DNA of 64,000 nt, from IMG/VR virus record IMGVR_UViG_3300020456_000005. One strand, 5' to 3'. The position numbers were made by a program, and so were the translations under genes. Every line of letters begins with the position of its first letter. Position 1 is the first letter of the stretch. The stretch comes from a virus. The notes beneath the pieces are model-generated. The model saw only the letters and a program-made list of their open reading frames with translations, ran no database searches and was not told where the DNA came from. Shown here piece by piece: positions 53,518-64,000 of this stretch.

Positions 53518-54185
53518 GCAAAGTTACACTTTCAAAAAACACGCTAGATGTCCTCAAAAATTTCTCAACGATTAACTCATCAATCGTATTCCGCAAAGGA
53601 TCTACAGTTAGGACTATCTCCAATGCAGAAAACATTCTGGCAAAATTCACTGGCGAAGAAGTATTTCCTGTGGACTTCGCGATTTATGATCTCAGTCAGT
53701 TTCTTTCTGGGATCTCTCTGTTTAACGATCCTCAGTTGGAATTCACATCTGGCGATTTTGTCAGCATCCGTGGCGGTCGTCAGTCTGCTAAGTATTATTT
53801 TTCTGATCCAGAAATTACACTCAAGAGTGCTCCAGAAAAAAATGTAAAATTTCCTGGTGCAGACATTCAATTCAATCTAACTGAATCTGATTTGATTGCA
53901 TTGCAAAAAGCGTCTGCTGTGTATAGTCTTCCTGACTTGACCTTCCAATCTGAGGAAGAATCTGATACCATTAAAATTATCCTTAGGGACAAAGAAAATG
54001 ATACCAGTAATACTTACGATATCACCGTGGCGGGTTGTTCTACTGGCACCTATTCTCTTGATCTTAAGATTGAAAACATTCGTGTCCTACCTGGTGACTA
54101 TACTGTTAAAGTATCTCAGCATCTAATTTCTGAGTGGACCAATACTAACACTGACCTTACTTATTACATTGCCCTTGAACCTTGA
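53514..54185 (+). CDS. g45: DNA polymerase sliding clamp gp45
   Basis: LKNFSTINSSI, FAIYDLSQFL, YYIALE. Confidence 0.95.
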   Translation: MSKVTLSKNTLDVLKNFSTINSSIVFRKGSTVRTISNAENILAKFTGEEVFPVDFAIYDLSQFLSGISLFNDPQLEFTSGDFVSIRGGRQSAKYYFSDPEITLKSAPEKNVKFPGADIQFNLTESDLIALQKASAVYSLPDLTFQSEEESDTIKIILRDKENDTSNTYDITVAGCSTGTYSLDLKIENIRVLPGDYTVKVSQHLISEWTNTNTDLTYYIALEP

Positions 54186-54697
54186 ATATATTCGTTACCG
54201 ACCTCAGTCCAATAAAGTCTGCTCAGGTATTACCTGACAAACATATTGTCAAGATGCCTTTAGAAACATGTCAAATGTTATCTATTGTGGCATCTGAAAA
54301 ATGGGGTCGTGGTTTTGGCGAATTACCTAAACTTGATGGTACACCATACAAAACAGATAAGGGTGCTTTTCGTAATCACCCATGTACTATCTGGGCACAA
54401 CATCGTTGGTCATGGTTGATACGTCATGGTCTAGCATTATGTGAAGAGTACACATACAGGTATGGTAAAATACACAGTTGTGAGAAAACTATTCTCCATG
54501 CTGAGAAGATTTTTCCATTTCAATATCTCGGATCTGTGGCAGACGAGACTTGGGAATTTGCTAGAGCAATGCCTGATCAATGGAAGTATGATAAAACCAT
54601 TGATGATATTACAGCATACAAAAGATACATTGCGTCTAAACCTTGGGTGAAAGATAATTACCTTCGCAAACCAGAACGCAAACCTGATTGGATTTAA
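54182..54697 (+). CDS. Pyrimidine-dimer DNA glycosylase family protein (DenV-like)
   Basis: MNIF...DKHIVKM.LE..QMLS, HPCT.W, L..EY..RYGK.H, AMP...AY.RY. Confidence 0.75.
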   Translation: MNIFVTDLSPIKSAQVLPDKHIVKMPLETCQMLSIVASEKWGRGFGELPKLDGTPYKTDKGAFRNHPCTIWAQHRWSWLIRHGLALCEEYTYRYGKIHSCEKTILHAEKIFPFQYLGSVADETWEFARAMPDQWKYDKTIDDITAYKRYIASKPWVKDNYLRKPERKPDWI

Positions 54698-55644: not shown

Positions 55645-55904
55645 ATAAAAAGACAACTCCTGAAAATGTAAAAGAAGCTCATGAAGGACTTTTTTATGCT
55701 ACAATGAATCTACCTACCGCAGCAAAACATTGCGGTATGACCCAGAAGGAGTTGAAAATGACATTCTTTGAATACCTTAAGTACAATGCCCCAAACTTTG
55801 AAATCACTGAAGACACCCCTGAGGTACCCAGGCGGCAAGAGCAGGGCTCTGGCAAACCTGTTCCGATTCCTCCCAGACCTTTCCCAGGTAACAGAGTATC
55901 GTGA
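55641..55904 (+). CDS. Hypothetical protein
   Basis: TTG overlapping the g44 stop; MNLPTAAKHCGMT motif; 3' end overlaps dam. Confidence 0.55.
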   Translation: MNKKTTPENVKEAHEGLFYATMNLPTAAKHCGMTQKELKMTFFEYLKYNAPNFEITEDTPEVPRRQEQGSGKPVPIPPRPFPGNRVS

Positions 55905-56625
55905 ACCTTTCTTGGGCGGCGGTAGTGTCGCCCTTGAGGTTACTAAAAGATATCCTAGACTGAATATTTGGGTCAACGATTTGTATGAACCGTTGACTAA
56001 TTTTTGGAAGACTTTGCAGGACGATGGGTACAACATGTACAAACGTCTTCAAGAACTAAAGTCTAGGTATCCAGATCAAGAATCTGCACGTGGATTGTTT
56101 GAAGAAGCAAAAGATCTTGTAAATGATTCTGACACTTCTCATCTATATCGTGCTTGTGCTTTCTATGTTATTAACAAGTGTAGTTTCTCTGGTTTAACTG
56201 AGTCTTCATCATTCTCTAAGCAAGCATCTGAATCTAATTTTTCAATGCGTGGAATTGAAAGATTGCCAGCATATACAGAACTAATTGAAAATTGGAAGAT
56301 TACTAATGGTCGCTACCAAGAACTCCTTACTGATGACAAAAACATATTCACCTACCTTGATCCACCCTATGAAATCGGATCCAATTTATATGGTAAGCGT
56401 GGAAGTATGCACAAAGGATTTGACCATGATGGGTTTGCTACTATTTGTGACCGTTTTGTCGGTCCTCAACTTATATCTTACAATTCGTCTCAGATGATTC
56501 GTGACCGTTTTAAGGAGTGGACAGTTGCGGAATTTGCACACACTTACACCATGCGCTCTGTGGGGAGTTATAATATAGATCAAGCGTCTCGTAAGGAACT
56601 AGTCCTTTTTAATTATGAAATGTGA
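55786..56625 (+). CDS. dam: DNA adenine methyltransferase (Dam/D12 class)
   Basis: LRYPGGKS, EPFLGGGSV, VND, YLDPPY. Confidence 0.92.
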   Translation: MPQTLKSLKTPLRYPGGKSRALANLFRFLPDLSQVTEYREPFLGGGSVALEVTKRYPRLNIWVNDLYEPLTNFWKTLQDDGYNMYKRLQELKSRYPDQESARGLFEEAKDLVNDSDTSHLYRACAFYVINKCSFSGLTESSSFSKQASESNFSMRGIERLPAYTELIENWKITNGRYQELLTDDKNIFTYLDPPYEIGSNLYGKRGSMHKGFDHDGFATICDRFVGPQLISYNSSQMIRDRFKEWTVAEFAHTYTMRSVGSYNIDQASRKELVLFNYEM

Positions 56626-58728: not shown

Positions 58729-58936
58729 AGAAATTGAAGATGTAACGTTTGGTGATCCAGACTGCATCTTAGTTGATCCTATGCTGATTGATGGGGACCA
58801 GTTGACAGACTGGCTCCCTTTTGCCACTAAAAAGGAGGCAGTCATCCGATCTTCTGATATAATTACATTTGTTGATCCGAGTAGCGACATGATTACTCGG
58901 TACTATGGTGGAAAACCCGCACTGCTTACTGAATGA
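58661..58936 (+). CDS. Conserved hypothetical protein (Sm-like fold predicted)
   Basis: GDPDCILVDP...WLPF...IRSSDIITFVDP; ATGA-coupled to g43. Confidence 0.7.
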   Translation: MISLEKLLKVLLLKDQWLLAQVEEIEDVTFGDPDCILVDPMLIDGDQLTDWLPFATKKEAVIRSSDIITFVDPSSDMITRYYGGKPALLTE

Positions 58937-61422
58937 AGTTTTATACTAATGTTGAACAGGCAGGCAACCGCCTGCTGGTCCGTGGTTATGAAGGTGGTCA
59001 ACCTTTTTCATACAGGGTATCTTTCAGTCCTACCCTGTATGTCCCTACAAAGAATTATTCTGAGTGGAGGACACTAGAAGGTAACTGCGTTGAACCTCTT
59101 AACATGGGTTCTATTAACGAAGCGAAAGAGTTCATCAAAAAGTATAAAGAAGTTGAGGAGTTTCCTATTTACGGAAACAGCAGGTATCTGTATCAATATA
59201 TTGCTCAAGAGCATCCCGAAGAAGAGATTCGTTATGACGTTTCTAAGATTCGTGTGTTTACTATTGATATTGAAACCGCAGCAGAGAATGGTTTTCCCGA
59301 CATTGAAACTGCAGACCAAGAGATCTTAGCGATCAGTATCAAAGATTCATATACTGGTCGCATTGTTGTCTTTGGAGCTCGTCCATTTGACAACAAAGAT
59401 TCTATGGTTGATTACATGCATTTTAATTCTGAAGAGTCAATGCTTTCAGCATTTCTTCAGTATTGGAATGAAAATTGTCCTGACGTTGTTACAGGTTGGA
59501 ATGTTCAGTTGTTTGATATTCCCTATATTGCTAGGCGTATTGATAGGGTACTTGGTGAGAAGTTTACTAGGACTCTTAGCCCTTGGAAACTTATTTCTTC
59601 TAGAGAGATTTTCATTAAAGGAAGAAAGCAGGTCGCTTATGATCTACCAGGAATTTCTACGCTGGATTATTATGACTTGTATAGGAAATTTACCTATCAG
59701 AATCAAGAGTCTTATAGGTTGGATCATATTGCCTTTGTTGAACTCGGACAAAAGAAATTAGATCACTCTGAGTACGATACATTCAAAGAGTTCTACGAGA
59801 ACGATTGGCAAAAATTCATTGAGTATAACATCCACGACGTACGTCTGGTTGATAAACTTGATGATAAAATGAAATTGATTGAACTTGCATTTACTATGGC
59901 ATATGATGCCAAGGTAAATTATGAAGATGTGTTCTCACAAGTTCGTATGTGGGACAACTACATTTATGTGGAACTTCTGAAGAGGAAGATTGCAATTCCT
60001 CCTAAAAAAGAAGCGACAAAAGATGCAAAATACGCAGGAGCATATGTCAAGGAACCGAAACCAGGATTCTATGATTGGGTTGTTAGTTTTGACCTTAATA
60101 GTCTGTATCCTCATCTTATCATGCAGTACAATATCTCGCCAGAAACACTCAGGGAAGCTAGACATCCCAGCGCGAGCGTTGAGGGGATTCTAAACAAACA
60201 AGTTGAACTAGATCCTGAGTTTTCTACGTGTGCTAATGGAGCACAGTACAGAAAAGATGTTCATGGATTCCTACCCCAGATGATGCAGAAGATGTATGAC
60301 TCTAGGGTTATTTTTAAAAAGAAAATGATTAAAGCGAAGCAGGAGTATGAAAAAACTCCTACTGTTGAACTCATGAATGAGATCGCTCGCTGTAATAATA
60401 TTCAGATGGCAAAGAAGATTTCTTTGAACTCTGCTTATGGTGCCATTGGTAATGAACACTTTAGATATTATCGTCTTGCTAATGCTGAAGCAATCACATT
60501 GAGTGGTCAGGTTTCAATTCGCTGGATTGAGAACAAAATGAATGAATATCTAAATAAACTACTCTCTACTGATAAGGTTGATTATGTTATCGCATCTGAC
60601 ACCGACTCAATTTATCTTAACCTCGGACCTCTTGTTAATAAATTTTTTAGTGCTAAGTCTGGCGACAAAGCAGCAATTGTGGACATACTTGACAAGATCT
60701 GCCAAGAGAAATTGGAACCTTTTATTGAACGTTCATATGAAGAACTTGCGTCGTACGTATCAGCGTATGACCAAAAGATGCAAATGAAGCGTGAGAACAT
60801 TGCAGACCGTGGCATCTGGACTGCAAAGAAGCGTTACATTCTTAATGTTTGGGATAGTGAGGGAGTTAGATATAAAGAACCCAAGATGAAGATCATGGGT
60901 CTTGAAACAGCAAGGAGTTCTACTCCTGCGTATTTTAGAGACAAGTTGTATGCAGCATTTAAGATTATTATCGGGAAAACAAATGATGAGCTTATCAATT
61001 TCATCAATGACGTGCGGTCGGAAACCCGAATGCGACCATATGAAGAAGTTGCTTTCCCGCGAGGAGTTAATAACCTTGCAAAATATCGCCACCCAAACGA
61101 AATATACTCCAAAGGGACTCCAATCCATGTGCGAGGAGCATTGTTGTATAATCACTATGTTAAAAAACACGGAGTAGAAAACAAACATCCTCTCATCCAA
61201 GAGGGTGAGAAGATTAAATTCATGTATTTGAAAACACCTAATCCAATCCATGAAAACTGTATCAGTTTCTTTGGGCAATTACCTAAAGAATTTGGTATTG
61301 AAAAGTATGTGGATTATCAGACACAGTTTGAGAAATCTTTCTTGGAACCATTAAAAAATGTGTTACAATGTATCGGATGGACCCATCAAAAAACTGTGTC
61401 AATTGGGAGTTTCTTTGAATGA
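58933..61422 (+). CDS. g43: DNA polymerase gp43 (family B)
   Basis: DIET, SFDLNSLYPH, KISLNSAYG, SDTDS, KKRY. Confidence 0.98.
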   Translation: MKFYTNVEQAGNRLLVRGYEGGQPFSYRVSFSPTLYVPTKNYSEWRTLEGNCVEPLNMGSINEAKEFIKKYKEVEEFPIYGNSRYLYQYIAQEHPEEEIRYDVSKIRVFTIDIETAAENGFPDIETADQEILAISIKDSYTGRIVVFGARPFDNKDSMVDYMHFNSEESMLSAFLQYWNENCPDVVTGWNVQLFDIPYIARRIDRVLGEKFTRTLSPWKLISSREIFIKGRKQVAYDLPGISTLDYYDLYRKFTYQNQESYRLDHIAFVELGQKKLDHSEYDTFKEFYENDWQKFIEYNIHDVRLVDKLDDKMKLIELAFTMAYDAKVNYEDVFSQVRMWDNYIYVELLKRKIAIPPKKEATKDAKYAGAYVKEPKPGFYDWVVSFDLNSLYPHLIMQYNISPETLREARHPSASVEGILNKQVELDPEFSTCANGAQYRKDVHGFLPQMMQKMYDSRVIFKKKMIKAKQEYEKTPTVELMNEIARCNNIQMAKKISLNSAYGAIGNEHFRYYRLANAEAITLSGQVSIRWIENKMNEYLNKLLSTDKVDYVIASDTDSIYLNLGPLVNKFFSAKSGDKAAIVDILDKICQEKLEPFIERSYEELASYVSAYDQKMQMKRENIADRGIWTAKKRYILNVWDSEGVRYKEPKMKIMGLETARSSTPAYFRDKLYAAFKIIIGKTNDELINFINDVRSETRMRPYEEVAFPRGVNNLAKYRHPNEIYSKGTPIHVRGALLYNHYVKKHGVENKHPLIQEGEKIKFMYLKTPNPIHENCISFFGQLPKEFGIEKYVDYQTQFEKSFLEPLKNVLQCIGWTHQKTVSIGSFFE

Positions 61423-61595
61423 GTAAGAAAGTCTTTGTGGTAACATGGACAAATCACGTAGTCGGTCAAATTGGATCTGAAGACATCAAATGTTTTGAAG
61501 ACTACAAAACTGCTCTTGCGTTTGCTAAACTAATGCGAGACAATTATACTTATGTAAACTTTTATGAGGATGAAGCAACACAATGGGATTTTTAG
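61419..61595 (+). CDS. Hypothetical 58-aa protein ([18 protein letters not shown]...), not in ORF track
   Basis: ATGA-coupled to g43; overlaps the uvsX start. Confidence 0.65.
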
Positions 61596-62596
61596 ATACT
61601 GTAATTAAAGATAGTGGAAACGAATTTGCTGGTTTGGTTAGTGAAGGAGTTGCTGCTGGCGACATTACTAATTACGTTGATACTGGCAGTTATATCTTTA
61701 ACGCCTTGGTTAGTGGTTCGTTGTTTGGAGGCTTGCCTTCCAACAAAGTTACAGCCTTGGCAGGAGAATCAAGCACGGGCAAGACTTTTTTTGCTCTCAG
61801 CGTCGTTCGTAATTTCCTTGACGCTAATCCTACAGGTGGCGTCATTTATTTTGAAACTGAATCCGCCATTTCCCGTGACATGATTGAGTCTCGTGGCATT
61901 GACAGTTCTCGTATGGTACTGTTCCCTGTTGCTACCATTGAGGAGTTCAGGACACAGGCATGCAGGATCCTTGACAAGTATCTTAAGGAACCAAAGGAGA
62001 GCAGACAACCAATGATGTTTGTGCTAGACTCTCTTGGTATGCTTTCAACCAATAAAGAGATGGAAGATGTTGCTAACGACAAACAAGTTCGTGACATGAC
62101 CAAATCACAGTTGATCAAAGGTGCCTTCCGTGTGCTAACATTGAAGCTTGGTCAGGCACAAGTCCCTATGATCGTCACAAACCATACCTATGATGTGATC
62201 GGTTCCTATGTCCCTGCAAAGGAGATGGGAGGCGGTACAGGTCTTAAGTATGCTGCATCTACTATCATCTATCTTGGCAAGAAGAAGGAGAAAGATGGCA
62301 CTGAACTGGTGGGTAACATCATCAAGTGCGAAGCAAAGAAATCTCGTCTAACCAAGGAGGGTAGTAAAGTTGAAACTCGTCTATTTTTTGACGACCGTGG
62401 ACTTGACAAGTATTACGGGCTACTGGAATTGGGTGAACAGTACGGAATCTTCAAGCGGGTGGGGAATCGCATTAAGTTTGGTGAATCTTCTGTTTATCCT
62501 AAATCTATTCTCTCTAATCCTGAGAAGTATTTTACCGAAGAAGTAATGGCAAAACTAGAAGAAGCTGCCAGAGAAGAATTTACCTACGGAAACTAA
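61583..62596 (+). CDS. uvsX: RecA-like recombinase UvsX
   Basis: [33 protein letters not shown]. Confidence 0.96.
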
Positions 62597-63285
62597 TGAA
62601 CTATTCTGAATTTATTACTAAGTACAAAACTATTAAAGAAAAGGGATTTATTAAATCTCAACGTAAAGGTGATGGTGCTGTTGGTAATACATTTGAAGAT
62701 GAATTGGGACTGCAAGAAAATAACATAGCAGGACCAGACATTGAAGGTAACGAATTAAAAGTTAAGCGAGCAACTGCTAGTGGACTACAAACTCTCTTCA
62801 ACAAAGAAGGTGAGTGGCAAATGACACAAATTGAATTTCTTGAGGGATATGGATTCCCACATACCAAATATGTTGGTGAAAAAACTGCTCAATCTACAGT
62901 TAAAAAAACACCTAACAAGAGAGGGTATTATTTTGAAACTGATGAAGAGCATCTCTATGTTAAATGTAAAGATGTCACCATTGTAAAATGGAATTGGACT
63001 CAGTTGGTAGAGCAATTTGGTAAGAAATTTCCTAATTGTATTAAAGTATTAGCAGAGACAAAAAAGATTGGAGGTGTTGAATACTTTCATTATAATAAAG
63101 CATACTTGTTTAAAGGAACTACAAAAGAAAAGTTCAAAGAGTTAATTGAAGAAGATGTAATTTCTATTGACTTCAGACTTTACACTCAGTATAATAAAGG
63201 TAAGGGAGTAAGAAATCGTGGTACTGCTTTTCGTATCCGTCACGAAGATATGGATAAATTATTTGTTAAGGAGACTCTAAATTGA
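62596..63285 (+). CDS. MvaI/BcnI-family restriction endonuclease
   Basis: RKGDGAVGNTFEDELGLQENN...PD....ELK..R (PD-(D/E)xK), TLF, FLE.YG, I.IDFRL, RNRGTAFRI. Confidence 0.85.
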   Translation: MNYSEFITKYKTIKEKGFIKSQRKGDGAVGNTFEDELGLQENNIAGPDIEGNELKVKRATASGLQTLFNKEGEWQMTQIEFLEGYGFPHTKYVGEKTAQSTVKKTPNKRGYYFETDEEHLYVKCKDVTIVKWNWTQLVEQFGKKFPNCIKVLAETKKIGGVEYFHYNKAYLFKGTTKEKFKELIEEDVISIDFRLYTQYNKGKGVRNRGTAFRIRHEDMDKLFVKETLN

Positions 63286-64000
63286 AGGACACAATTCTCT
63301 TTGGTGATTGTCGTGAAACATTAAAAGAGTTTACTGGTAAGGCGAGGATGTGTGTAACATCACCGCCTTATTATGGTTTGAGAAACTATGGTGGTGAACA
63401 AGATCAAATTGGTCTGGAACAAACACCAGAAGAATATGTTGACAATCTCGTAAAAGTATTTCGTGAGGTAAGAAATTGTCTTACTGATGATGGAACATGC
63501 TGGGTTAATCTTGGTGATAGTTACTATAACTATAGACCAGGTAAAGGACAAGCAATTCATAAACAATCAGTATCTAAAACTAACCAAGATTTACCTAGCA
63601 CATGTGCTAGACGAGGTAACAAACTAGAAGGTCTTAAAGAAAAAGATCTTATTGGTATTCCTTGGATGTTTGCTTTTGCTATGAGAGCAGACGGATGGTA
63701 TCTAAGACAAGATATTATCTGGAATAAACCTAATCCTATGCCTGAAAGTGTACGAGATAGATGTACTAAATCACATGAGTATATCTTTTTGTTTAGCAAA
63801 AGTCAGAATTATTATTTTGATGTTGATGCTATCAAAGAACCAACTGTAGATGGTAAAGGATTGAAGCGTAAGAAAACTGTGTGGGAAGTTAAAACCAAAC
63901 CATATAAAGGAGCACACTTTGCTGTGTATCCACCAGAACTAATTGAACCGTGTATTAAATCTGGAAGTGAAGAAGGTGACATTGTATTAGATCCTTTTAT
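63282..64000 (+). CDS. N4-cytosine DNA methyltransferase, beta class (3'-truncated; not in ORF track)
   Basis: TTG start overlapping the REase stop; GDC, VTSPPYYGLRNYG..QIGLE, NLGDSY, KDLIGIPW, IIWNKPNPMPESV, HFAVYP, DIVLDPF at the window edge. Confidence 0.92.
   Translation, partial: MKDTILFGDCRETLKEFTGKARMCVTSPPYYGLRNYGGEQDQIGLEQTPEEYVDNLVKVFREVRNCLTDDGTCWVNLGDSYYNYRPGKGQAIHKQSVSKTNQDLPSTCARRGNKLEGLKEKDLIGIPWMFAFAMRADGWYLRQDIIWNKPNPMPESVRDRCTKSHEYIFLFSKSQNYYFDVDAIKEPTVDGKGLKRKKTVWEVKTKPYKGAHFAVYPPELIEPCIKSGSEEGDIVLDPF

What the first reader, a model, noticed from the sequence alone, without database searches (positions are those of the whole stretch)
62596..64000. Phage-encoded type II restriction-modification pair inserted in the replication operon after uvsX
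Seen: uvsX stop overlaps the endonuclease start (TAATG), and the endonuclease stop overlaps the TTG start of a methyltransferase the ORF track missed. The endonuclease keeps the PD...ELK catalytic motif. The MTase has SPPY before VLDPF. Established: MvaI (CCWGG) and BcnI (CCSGG) are monomeric REases paired with N4-cytosine MTases. SPPY beta-class enzymes with GLRxYG..QIGLE resemble M.SmaI/M.Cfr9I. In T4-like cyanophages uvsX is normally followed by helicase g41, and orphan MTases are far more usual than REase+MTase pairs. Inference: this lytic phage carries its own R-M system, co-expressed with replication genes. It could digest host DNA for nucleotides, exclude co-infecting phages, or spread selfishly via UvsX-dependent recombination.
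Basis: partly seen in the sequence, partly recalled or inferred. Interest (0 to 1): 0.85.

Follow-up and report, generated by a model that had tools for sequence, protein, structure and literature searches.

The report
Restriction-modification gene pair in marine cyanophage
A lytic T4-like virus of marine cyanobacteria carries an intact DNA-cutting enzyme and its protective methylase between two replication genes, and this pair belongs to a mobile, phage-specific lineage seen so far only in uncultured cyanophages.

Summary
uvsX (61583-62596) overlaps by one base a 229-aa ORF (62596-63285). That ORF is a full-length MvaI/BcnI-family endonuclease: Pfam 2.4e-46, all four catalytic residues, and a predicted fold matching BcnI and MvaI at TM 0.81-0.83. 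Its stop overlaps by 4 nt the TTG start of an SPPY beta-class methyltransferase cut by the window end. Contigs 99% identical show that methyltransferase complete at 283 aa and followed by g41.

Residue mapping points to CCWGG rather than CCSGG. The window has 62 CCWGG sites and no CCSGG site. Published marine metaepigenomes report m4C at CCWGG in myovirus-like genomes.

The endonuclease is absent from 50,697 GenBank phage records except one single-cell virus contig, and absent from PHROGs. It forms a phage-only clade of 39-99% identity, paired with this methyltransferase in 44 of 45 clade loci, at five or more genomic contexts. The methyltransferase alone is far commoner.

The uvsX|g41 junction is polymorphic: empty, M only, or R+M with two endonuclease alleles only 54% identical. 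R and M trees disagree.

It is a real, probably functional, mobile type II R-M cassette. Whether it serves host DNA breakdown, phage-phage competition or selfish spread is untested. Other first-stage notes of this scan flagged the same arrangement on other DNA.

The parts
61583..62596 (+). uvsX (RecA-like recombinase), the upstream core gene. Its stop overlaps the REase start by 1 nt (TAATG at 62594-62598).
   Evidence: ORF; Pfam RecA 2e-12; 87-100% aa identity to uvsX of cyanomyoviruses.
62596..63285 (+). 229-aa MvaI/BcnI-family type IIP restriction endonuclease, predicted to cut CC/WGG.
   Evidence: Pfam PF15515 2.4e-46, full length. PDB MvaI 1e-16 and BcnI 2e-12. AlphaFold pLDDT 93.7. Foldseek BcnI-DNA TM 0.83 and MvaI-DNA TM 0.81. 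PADLOC REase_II. dN/dS 0.09-0.28.
62695..62760 (+). Catalytic core codons E34, D48, E53, K55 (P-D-x4-E-L-K).
   Evidence: They align with MvaI E36/D50/E55/K57 (PMC1874612 abstract). Invariant in 39 homologues of 33-87% identity.
63169..63234 (+). Recognition-lobe codons D192, R194, R206, R208, R213. They correspond to MvaI D207, R209, H223, H225, R230.
   Evidence: Alignment mapped onto the contacts listed in PMC1874612 section 25. R194, R206 and R213 are invariant; D192 and R208 are nearly invariant.
63167..63195 (+). Sigma-70-like promoter match (TTGACT-17-TATAAT, 11 of 12) inside the REase 3' end, 87 nt before the MTase start. A possible independent MTase promoter, unproven.
   Evidence: The same hexamers occur in L003, L001, L004, L017 and L019 but not in L011, L014 or L022. 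They overlap the conserved D-x-R-L-Y-T-Q-Y-N codons, so the conservation is confounded.
63268..63285 (+). R/M junction: Shine-Dalgarno-like AAGGAG (63268-63273), an 8-nt spacer, then TTGA, in which the MTase TTG start and the REase TGA stop overlap by 4 nt.
   Evidence: Sequence. The 4-nt overlap is present in all 32 REase loci where the MTase start is held. TTG starts 12 of 15 distinct R-linked MTases and 0 of 48 orphans.
63282..64000 (+). First 239 codons of a 283-aa beta-class SPPY (N4-cytosine type) DNA methyltransferase, cut by the window end. SPPY at 63360-63371; VLDPF (start of motif I) at 63984-63998.
   Evidence: Pfam PF01555 3.1e-42. 237/239 identical to the complete L007 MTase. PADLOC MTase_II 2.4e-108. 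phrog_67.

Best explanation
This is an intact and very probably active type IIP restriction-modification cassette carried by a lytic T4-like cyanomyovirus.

The parts. The first gene encodes a monomeric MvaI-like endonuclease predicted to cut CC/WGG. The second encodes a small beta-class methyltransferase predicted to make N4-methylcytosine at the same site.

Expression. The cassette sits between uvsX and g41 with no intergenic DNA. The uvsX stop overlaps the R start, the R stop overlaps the M TTG start, and in full-length relatives the M stop abuts the g41 start. Both enzymes would therefore be made from the replication-gene mRNA, and M translation would be coupled to R translation.

Inferred mechanism. 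Virion DNA enters already methylated. Newly replicated DNA is hemimethylated, and in MvaI a single inner m4C blocks cutting of both strands, so the phage genome stays immune. Any unmethylated CCWGG in the infected cell is cut. That includes the GC-rich host chromosome and any co-infecting phage lacking the methylase.

Evolution. The cassette is mobile. It was acquired from lower-GC cyanophages, it sits in an insertion hot-spot, and the endonuclease gene is gained, lost and swapped upstream of a much more widespread methylase.

Shown versus inferred. Shown: gene identity, intactness, conserved active-site and DNA-contact residues, purifying selection, distribution and mobility. Inferred: enzymatic activity, CCWGG/m4C specificity, timing, and which DNA is the biologically relevant target.
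For: Identity and intactness:
- Pfam, PDB, fold and PADLOC hits.
- The catalytic residues E34/D48/E53/K55 and the DNA-contact residues are invariant across 33-99% identity.
- dN/dS is 0.09-0.28 for R and 0.03-0.14 for M.
- All 33 REase copies examined are 228-236 aa and intact.
- The same uvsX-R-M-g41 arrangement occurs on at least 24 independent metagenome contigs, the longest 199 kb.

Specificity:
- The five MvaI side-chain major-groove contacts (T68, T102, D207, R209, R230) are conserved, including R209, which reads the central T.
- The two histidines by which BcnI reads central C:G (H77, H219) are N69 and A211 here.
- The window has 62 CCWGG sites but 0 CCSGG sites, so only CCWGG would require a protective methylase.
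- m4C at CCWGG is reported in marine Myoviridae-like viral genomes (PMC8919816) and CCWGG methylation as unique to viral MAGs (PMC9516812).

Self-protection logic: MvaI methylation rules, PMC1874612 section 26.

Cognate pairing: 44 of 45 cyanophage-clade REase loci in IMG/VR have this MTase family immediately downstream or run off the contig.

Mobility:
- Cassette GC is 0.30-0.36 against 0.40-0.45 in uvsX and g41.
- The junction has four states.
- Between L007 and L022 the MTase is 90-97% nt identical while uvsX is about 86%, g41 about 80% and the REase 50-70%.
Against: - No enzyme activity, methylation or expression data exist for this phage.
- Specificity is inferred from about 25-30% identical structures. 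The minor-groove contacts (MvaI N28/T29) are D26/G27 here, as in BcnI. MvaI H223/H225 are Arg here.
- No cultured cyanophage carries the endonuclease, so nothing is known about phenotype.
- The methylase would also methylate host DNA, so the balance between cutting and protecting host sites is unknown.
- One relative (L221) has the endonuclease with no detectable methylase on a 127-kb record that is about 70% complete. This is either an incomplete record or evidence that the nuclease can be tolerated without this MTase.
Confidence: 0.8

Rival explanations
1. The cassette, or at least the endonuclease gene, is mainly a selfish element that confers no benefit on the phage. The REase would persist because it can invade only genomes that already carry the protective MTase. 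It would then spread in mixed infections by cutting unmethylated relatives, with recombinational repair copying it in, as with homing endonucleases of T-even phages.
For: - Sporadic distribution: 45 cyanophage-clade REase loci against at least 592 MTase loci in IMG/VR.
- At least 5 gains or losses of the REase on the MTase tree.
- Precise presence/absence of the REase ORF between L007 and L031.
- Two REase alleles only 54% identical sit upstream of 94%-identical MTases, and monophyly of the junction REases is rejected (AU p = 3e-6).
- The same junction holds an HNH endonuclease in another lineage.
- Empty-site relatives have CCWGG sites 139-640 bp from the junction in most loci.
Against: - Strong purifying selection, and a clade spanning 39-99% identity, imply long retention under selection for activity. 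A purely parasitic gene that has to stay active to spread could show the same pattern.
- Homing normally needs a rare target at the empty site. Here the target occurs every 0.6-1 kb, so cleavage would shred a competitor rather than convert it.
- This is not exclusive of the best explanation: a selfish origin and a competitive benefit can coexist.
Confidence: 0.3
2. The nuclease is not a restriction enzyme. It would be a MutH-like strand-nicking enzyme that uses the methyl mark for phage replication, recombination initiation or mismatch repair, which would explain its position next to uvsX, g43 and g41.
For: - The MvaI/BcnI family is structurally related to MutH (PMC1874612 abstract), and MutH appears as a weak fold match.
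- Family members cut one strand at a time.
- One relative (L221) also sits in the replication module, between regA and g43.
Against: - The fold match to MutH is far weaker (E 0.08, TM 0.40) than to BcnI and MvaI (E 1e-18, TM 0.8).
- Most pairs lie outside the replication module: next to CP12, 2OG-Fe(II) oxygenases, a ResIII helicase or pyrE. Linkage to uvsX is therefore not conserved.
- The uvsX|g41 junction is a generic insertion hot-spot.
- In MvaI, hemimethylated inner-m4C sites are not nicked at all.
Confidence: 0.05
3. The endonuclease gene is an inactive relic and only the methylase matters, acting as anti-restriction protection against host enzymes as in cultured cyanophages.
For: - Orphan versions of this MTase are the rule in isolates.
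- Cyanomyoviruses strongly avoid other short palindromes (CCGG, GGCC), which shows pressure from host restriction.
Against: - All catalytic and DNA-contact residues are invariant.
- No frameshift or internal stop occurs in any of 33 copies.
- dN/dS is 0.09-0.28.
- No close relative of this REase exists in picocyanobacteria or any other cellular genome: identity is 42% or less apart from two mis-binned phage contigs.
Confidence: 0.04

Closest known systems
R.MvaI / M.MvaI (CC/WGG, Cm4CWGG) type IIP system
   Same: - Same Pfam family.
- Predicted fold TM 0.81 to the MvaI-DNA complex.
- Catalytic E/D/E/K quartet conserved.
- All five side-chain major-groove contacts conserved, including the Arg that reads the central T.
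- The GTAFR loop is identical.
- The partner is an SPPY-type (m4C-type) methylase.
   Different: - Only about 25-30% identical.
- Minor-groove residues N28/T29 are D26/G27 here.
- H223/H225 are Arg here.
- Encoded by a lytic phage inside a replication operon, in the order R then M, with translational coupling and a TTG start.
- M.MvaI itself could not be compared because no sequence was at hand.
R.BcnI (CC/SGG) monomeric REase
   Same: Best fold match (TM 0.83 to 2odi). Same family. The D-G at the minor-groove contact position is as in BcnI.
   Different: - It lacks both histidines (H77, H219) by which BcnI reads the central C:G pair; these are N69 and A211 here.
- The phage genome window contains no CCSGG site at all, so a BcnI-like specificity would need no methylase.
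Chlorovirus R-M systems (e.g. PBCV-1)
   Same: - Lytic dsDNA viruses of phototrophs with about 40% GC genomes infecting GC-richer hosts.
- Adjacent R and M genes.
- Only a minority of viral MTases have a companion REase, and orphan MTases are thought to be leftovers of lost REases.
- The REases are implicated in rapid host DNA degradation (PMC7019647).
   Different: - Eukaryotic host.
- m5C and m6A chemistry with 2-4 bp sites.
- The REases are packaged in virions, which is unknown here.
- There the REases were found not to cause mutual exclusion of co-infecting viruses.
Orphan 'dam / cytosine' methyltransferase of cultured cyanomyoviruses (P-SSM2, P-SSM4, P-HM1/2, S-SSM4, S-SSM5, P-TIM68 and others)
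   Same: Same MTase family at 64-75% aa identity. In uncultured relatives the REase sits directly upstream of the MTase at those same canonical positions.
   Different: The isolates have no REase. Orphan MTases start with ATG or GTG, never TTG.
Free-standing homing endonucleases of T4-like phages (Seg/Mob/HNH)
   Same: - Sporadic presence between conserved core genes.
- Precise presence/absence polymorphism.
- An HNH gene occupies the same uvsX|g41 junction in another lineage.
   Different: - The target is a short frequent site rather than a long rare one.
- Self-immunity comes from methylation, not from disruption of the target.
- Different nuclease family.

Membership tests
MvaI/BcnI restriction endonuclease family (Pfam PF15515) | Full-length match to the family HMM above the gathering score | tested here: met
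   159 bits against a cut-off of 25; profile positions 1-227 of 227.
MvaI/BcnI restriction endonuclease family (Pfam PF15515) | PD-(D/E)XK active site: MvaI E36, D50, E55, K57 | tested here: met
   E34, D48, E53 and K55 align with them and are invariant in 39 homologues.
MvaI/BcnI restriction endonuclease family (Pfam PF15515) | Two-lobe fold of MvaI and BcnI | tested here: met
   AlphaFold model pLDDT 93.7. Foldseek gives 2odi TM 0.83 and 2oaa TM 0.81, both with E about 1e-18.
MvaI/BcnI restriction endonuclease family (Pfam PF15515) | Recognition of CCWGG (MvaI) or CCSGG (BcnI) through defined base contacts | tested here: inconclusive
   MvaI T68/T102/D207/R209/R230 are conserved and BcnI H77/H219 are absent, which favours CCWGG. 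However H223/H225 are Arg and N28/T29 are D/G here. There is no cleavage assay.
MvaI/BcnI restriction endonuclease family (Pfam PF15515) | Monomer that cuts the two strands sequentially | not testable with these tools
   Needs biochemistry.
Beta-class N4-cytosine DNA methyltransferase (Pfam PF01555 N6_N4_Mtase) | HMM match, and beta-class motif order: motif IV, then the target-recognition region, then motif I | tested here: met
   145 bits in the window. 195-199 bits for the complete relatives L003 and L001. SPPY at residues 27-30 and VLDPF(MGSGTT) from residue 235.
Beta-class N4-cytosine DNA methyltransferase (Pfam PF01555 N6_N4_Mtase) | SPP(Y/F) rather than DPPY in motif IV, the signature of m4C enzymes (established knowledge) | tested here: met
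   TSPPYYG in the sequence. The chemical product is untested. m4C at CCWGG is reported in marine myovirus-like genomes.
Type II restriction-modification system | Adjacent, co-oriented REase and MTase genes that co-occur consistently | tested here: met
   A 4-nt overlap in all 32 loci where both genes are held. The MTase follows the REase, or the contig ends, in 44 of 45 cyanophage-clade loci of IMG/VR.
Type II restriction-modification system | The MTase modifies the REase's site and blocks cleavage | not testable with these tools
   Needs expression and a cleavage/protection assay.
Homing-endonuclease-like mobile nuclease gene | Sporadic, phylogenetically discordant presence at a fixed intergenic site among close relatives | tested here: met
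   Four junction states. At least 5 changes on the MTase tree. The REase and MTase trees are discordant.
Homing-endonuclease-like mobile nuclease gene | The nuclease cuts the empty allele at or near the insertion site, and repair copies the gene in | tested here: inconclusive
   CCWGG sites lie 139-640 bp from the junction in most empty-site loci, but the site is frequent everywhere. No genetic test has been done.

The most novel reading that the evidence does not exclude
Marine cyanomyoviruses fight each other with a restriction enzyme. The MvaI-like REase would be an inter-phage weapon that destroys co-infecting genomes unmethylated at CCWGG. The widespread and long-puzzling 'orphan' m4C methylases of cyanophages would then be immunity genes against it, not only against host enzymes. 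The REase gene would hop, homing-element-like, among genomes that already carry the immunity.
Probability: 0.25. Interest if true: 0.85.

Novelty: new member of a known kind. Interest (0 to 1): 0.62.

Why it matters
T4 tells its own DNA from the host's by replacing cytosine. Cyanophages use ordinary cytosine, so how they degrade host DNA while sparing their own, and why so many carry 'orphan' cytosine methylases, has no clear answer. A phage-borne endonuclease cognate to that methylase family offers a concrete, testable self/non-self mechanism. It also offers a candidate explanation for the m4C CCWGG marks seen in marine viral metaepigenomes.

The polymorphic uvsX|g41 junction (empty, M only, R+M with two REase alleles) is a natural experiment for studying gain, loss and swapping of restriction genes in lytic phages. 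It provides PCR-addressable markers for finding such phages in seawater. The enzymes themselves are small and may be useful reagents.

Tried and rejected
- No whole genome is held for the window, so downstream sequence came from near-identical contigs.
- NCBIfam gave no REase model hit. PHROGs gave none either; this is used as evidence of absence from catalogued phage families.
- Literature searches pairing cyanophage with MvaI, and several on phage-encoded R-M, found no description of this system.
- The EcoSal R-M review mentions cyanophages only in an author biography.
- The genome-contig scan with the broad alignment A2 failed for lack of a conserved stretch. It was repeated with the closer alignment A3.
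- One region fetch was too short to be useful.
- The metaepigenome paper's supplements are not held, so CCWGG methylation could not be tied to contigs carrying this MTase.
- Considered and rejected: pseudogene (intact, under purifying selection); assembly chimera or host DNA (same arrangement on at least 24 contigs from different samples); BcnI-like CCSGG specificity (the two histidines are missing and the window has zero sites); functional linkage to uvsX (the pairs mostly lie elsewhere and the junction is a general hot-spot).
- The promoter-like site inside the REase could not be separated from codon conservation.
Full report
**1. What is in the window**

The last 5 kb of the window reads g43 (58933-61422), a 58-aa ORF, uvsX (61583-62596), a 229-aa ORF (62596-63285), and a frame starting with TTG at 63282 that is still open at base 64000.
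- The uvsX stop and the 229-aa ORF's ATG share one base (TAATG).
- The ORF's TGA lies inside TTGA, whose TTG starts the next frame.
- AAGGAG lies 8 nt upstream of that TTG.

The flanks identify the source as a T4-like cyanomyovirus.
- g43-uvsX is 80-83% nt identical to Synechococcus phages Sf-CH1b, ACG-2014h, ACG-2014j, S-H9-1, S-RSM4 and S-WAM2.
- In every one of these the similarity stops at the end of uvsX.
- In those isolates uvsX is directly followed by, and overlaps, g41.

**2. Identity of the two genes**

The 229-aa protein is a full-length member of Pfam MvaI_BcnI (2.4e-46, 159 bits, profile 1-227 of 227).
- Against PDB sequences it finds only R.MvaI (1e-16) and R.BcnI (2e-12).
- An AlphaFold model built on 39 homologues has mean pLDDT 93.7.
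- That model matches the BcnI-DNA and MvaI-DNA complexes at TM 0.83 and 0.81 (E about 1e-18). MutH is far behind at E 0.08.
- E34, D48, E53 and K55 align with the MvaI active-site residues E36, D50, E55 and K57 (PMC1874612).
- These four residues are invariant across homologues down to 33% identity.

The second protein matches N6_N4_Mtase (3.1e-42).
- It has the beta-class motif order: SPPY near the N terminus and VLDPF(MGSGTT) near the C terminus.
- SPP(Y/F) in motif IV is the usual signature of N4-cytosine enzymes (established knowledge).
- PADLOC's type II models hit both proteins: REase_II at 1e-19 and MTase_II at 2.4e-108.

**3. The methylase is complete beyond the window**

A REase cluster 99% identical to the window's is found on at least 24 contigs from different samples, the longest 199 kb.
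- Four of these were fetched (L007-L010). They read g43 - 58 aa - uvsX - REase - MTase (283 aa) - g41 (461 aa) - tryptophan halogenase - MazG.
- The window's 239 MTase residues are 237/239 identical to L007's.
- A more distant IMG/VR contig (L003; REase 87%, MTase 93%) has the same order with a 284-aa MTase. Its stop overlaps the g41 start.

The 'frameshifted MTase' refutation therefore fails.

**4. Predicted specificity**

The MvaI-DNA structure paper lists the base contacts (PMC1874612 section 25). Mapped through the alignment:

| MvaI residue | Role | Here |
|---|---|---|
| T68, T102, D207, R209, R230 | side-chain major-groove contacts | T66, T97, D192, R194, R213 (conserved) |
| H223, H225 | contact guanine O6 | R206, R208 (Arg is also a guanine reader) |
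| N28, T29 | minor-groove contacts | D26, G27 (as in BcnI) |

R209 reads the central thymine and the adjacent guanine.

BcnI reads its central C:G pair with two histidines, H77 and H219 (PMC3089477). Here those positions are N69 and A211. MvaI has T and A there, and the GTAFR loop is identical to MvaI's.

Site counts in the 64-kb window add to this:
- CCWGG occurs 62 times, close to the 57 expected from composition.
- CCSGG occurs 0 times, because CCGG is totally absent.
- A CCSGG enzyme would therefore need no methylase here, whereas a CCWGG enzyme would.

Two marine metaepigenome studies provide independent support:
- m4C at CCWGG as a recurrent motif of Myoviridae-like viral genomes (PMC8919816).
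- CCWGG methylation as unique to viral MAGs (PMC9516812).

I put CCWGG at about 65%.

**5. How common it is, and where**

tblastn of the REase against 50,697 GenBank phage records finds a single record, the single-cell virus contig AG-345-L05 (77% aa). PHROGs has no family for it.

The MTase, by contrast, has 64-75% identical orphan homologues in about 40 cyanomyovirus records, including P-SSM2, P-SSM4, P-SSM7, P-HM1/2, MED4-213, S-SSM4/5, P-RSM4, S-TIM4, P-TIM40 and P-TIM68.

In metagenome protein collections the REase has more than 100 clusters at 90% identity.

Every context examined, down to 39% identity, is a cyanomyovirus, with the MTase directly downstream:

| Upstream neighbour | Loci |
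|---|---|
| uvsX | this window and relatives |
| ResIII helicase (pyrE follows the pair in L001) | L001, L017 |
| 2OG-Fe(II) oxygenase | L004-L006 |
| CP12 | L011-L013, L019-L020 |
| Small-ORF region | L014-L016 |

In IMG/VR an alignment-based scan found 86 relatives.
- 45 belong to the cyanophage clade (45% identity or more).
- 44 of those 45 are followed by this MTase or run off the contig.
- The exception, L221, has the REase alone between regA and Hsp20/g43. No MTase was detected on its 127-kb record, which is about 70% complete.

R+ genomes are therefore under about 8% of M+ genomes. The scans are pattern-based, so these numbers are rough.

Among one genome each of 185,579 prokaryote species, only two contigs hit above 45% identity. 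Both are in marine MAGs and both are cyanophage DNA.
- L259 is a 14,985-bp contig with the same REase-MTase hits as IMG/VR contig L192, which has the same length.
- L260 matches cyanophages.

Genuine cellular homologues are 42% identical or less, and none is from picocyanobacteria. This is therefore a phage-resident lineage.

**6. The genes are under selection**
- All 33 REase copies extracted are intact at 228-236 aa. The 4-nt R/M overlap is present wherever the MTase start is held.
- Pairwise dN/dS is 0.09-0.28 for the REase and 0.03-0.14 for the MTase.
- R-linked MTases start with TTG in 12 of 15 distinct sequences. Orphan MTases start with ATG (41) or GTG (7) and never with TTG.
- These counts are not phylogenetically independent. 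The pattern still fits MTase translation that depends on ribosomes terminating the REase frame.

**7. A polymorphic junction and discordant histories**

In relatives with 82-96% identical uvsX, the uvsX|g41 junction occurs in four states:
- **A:** direct uvsX-g41. This is the majority and includes all isolates.
- **B:** uvsX-R-M-g41 with no intergenic DNA. This is the window.
- **C:** uvsX, then 78 nt holding a terminator-like hairpin and a TTGCAC-N17-TATAGT promoter-like site, then a REase only 54% identical to the window's, then an MTase 94% identical, then g41.
- **D:** uvsX-M-g41 without a REase. L031's MTase is 93% identical to L007's (283 aa; 237/239 identical to the window's), and its first codons are those of the ancestral g41 start.

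More distant lineages carry a 2OG-Fe(II) oxygenase or an HNH endonuclease at the same place.

Further evidence of mobility:
- Between L007 (B) and L022 (C), nucleotide identity is about 86% in uvsX, 50-70% in the REase, 90-97% in the MTase and about 80% in g41.
- L031 differs from L007 by a clean absence of the REase ORF.
- On the MTase tree the state B, state C and some state D sequences form one clade with 100% SH-aLRT support, and REase presence needs at least 5 changes.
- On the REase tree the B and C alleles fall in different clades. B groups with the ResIII- and oxygenase-context REases, C with a CP12-context REase.
- Forcing B and C together costs 214 log-likelihood units (AU p = 3e-6). 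The group was defined from gene context, but after I had seen the identity values.
- A second, distinct MTase lineage also occupies the junction, always without a REase.
- Cassette GC is 0.30-0.36 against 0.40-0.45 in uvsX and g41.

Together these results show horizontal movement of the cassette. They also show turnover of the REase gene upstream of a more stable MTase.

**8. How it most likely works**

Shown: two intact, conserved, translationally linked genes for a CCWGG-type endonuclease and an m4C-type methylase, embedded without a promoter of their own in the g43-uvsX-g41 replication cluster.

Inferred steps:
1. Packaged DNA is fully methylated.
2. After injection, R and M are made together with the replication proteins.
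3. Daughter duplexes are hemimethylated. For MvaI, m4C on the inner cytosine of one strand blocks cutting of both strands, while m5C (Dcm-type) does not protect (PMC1874612 section 26). The phage genome is therefore immune throughout.
4. Unmethylated CCWGG elsewhere in the cell is cut.

Two kinds of DNA in the cell would be exposed:
- The host chromosome. From base composition, a marine Synechococcus chromosome of 55-60% GC would carry roughly one site per 300-400 bp (my estimate, not measured).
- M-less relatives. Sf-CH1b has 79 sites in 50 kb.

Both would be shredded. The data do not decide which target matters.

The closest precedent is the chloroviruses. There about a quarter of viral MTases have companion REases, orphan MTases are suspected relics of lost REases, and packaged REases start host DNA degradation within minutes. 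Those REases did not explain mutual exclusion (PMC7019647).

The sporadic, swapped and hot-spot-located REase equally fits a selfish or weapon-like element.

**9. Novelty**

R-M systems, the MvaI/BcnI family and virus-borne R-M are all known, so this is a new member of a known kind.

What I could not find described:
- an MvaI-like REase in T4-like cyanophages;
- its cognate link to the well-known orphan cyanophage methylases;
- the phage-only clade;
- the R/M discordance at a polymorphic core-gene junction.

One metaepigenome paper counts R and RM genes in viral MAGs in bulk without describing them. Other first-stage notes of this scan flagged the same arrangement on this stretch and on another genome; the latter includes the state C promoter, which I saw independently in L022.

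Noticed in passing
window 1-64000: Extreme avoidance of short palindromes. CCGG occurs 0 times (about 94 expected from composition, 50 by Markov model). TCGA occurs 0 times (227 and 94 expected). GGCC occurs 6 times (94 expected). AGCT is at half the expected count. CCGG and GGCC avoidance is shared with Sf-CH1b and other relatives. The complete absence of TCGA is peculiar to this lineage, since Sf-CH1b has 126 in 50 kb.
   Followed up: partly
window 55768-56625 (+): A second DNA methyltransferase, D12-class (Dam-type, Pfam 5e-29), lies between gp44 and gp62 of the clamp-loader genes. GATC is not avoided (286 observed, 227 expected). A homologous gene is present at the corresponding place in Sf-CH1b.
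   Followed up: partly
window 54182-54697 (+): A pyrimidine-dimer DNA glycosylase (denV-like, Pfam Pyr_excise 8e-15) lies between gp45 and gp44.
   Followed up: no
L007 8920-10497 (just beyond the window's end in near-identical contigs): A 525-aa tryptophan-halogenase-family gene (Pfam 1.8e-102) is inserted between g41 and MazG. Its GC is also low (about 0.34). Sf-CH1b has g41 directly followed by MazG.
   Followed up: no
L133 2156-2641; L143 4474-5067 and about 19 similar loci: The same uvsX|g41 junction holds an HNH endonuclease in one lineage and a 197-aa 2OG-Fe(II) oxygenase in a group of more distant cyanomyoviruses. It is a general insertion hot-spot.
   Followed up: partly
L221 3001-3693 (IMG/VR contig of 126,920 bp): A solitary MvaI/BcnI-type REase (47% identical) lies between regA and Hsp20/g43 of a T4-like phage. 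It has no adjacent MTase, and none of this family was detected on the record, which is about 70% complete.
   Followed up: partly
L231/L232, L235/L236, L239-L241 (IMG/VR, not cyanophage-like): Several viral contigs carry two MvaI/BcnI-family ORFs in tandem, 24-33% identical to the query.
   Followed up: no
L259 (MAG 'Rhodopirellula sp. NAT69') and L260 (MAG 'Euryarchaeota archaeon TMED129'): Contigs in two public marine MAGs are cyanomyovirus DNA carrying this R-M pair, which suggests mis-binned phage sequence.
   Followed up: partly
L225, L226, L237 (IMG/VR): In distant, non-cyanophage T4-like contigs a 29-32% identical MvaI/BcnI-family gene lies downstream of a RecA/UvsX-like gene. In L226 it also lies upstream of a DnaB/g41-like gene, a loosely similar neighbourhood.
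   Followed up: no
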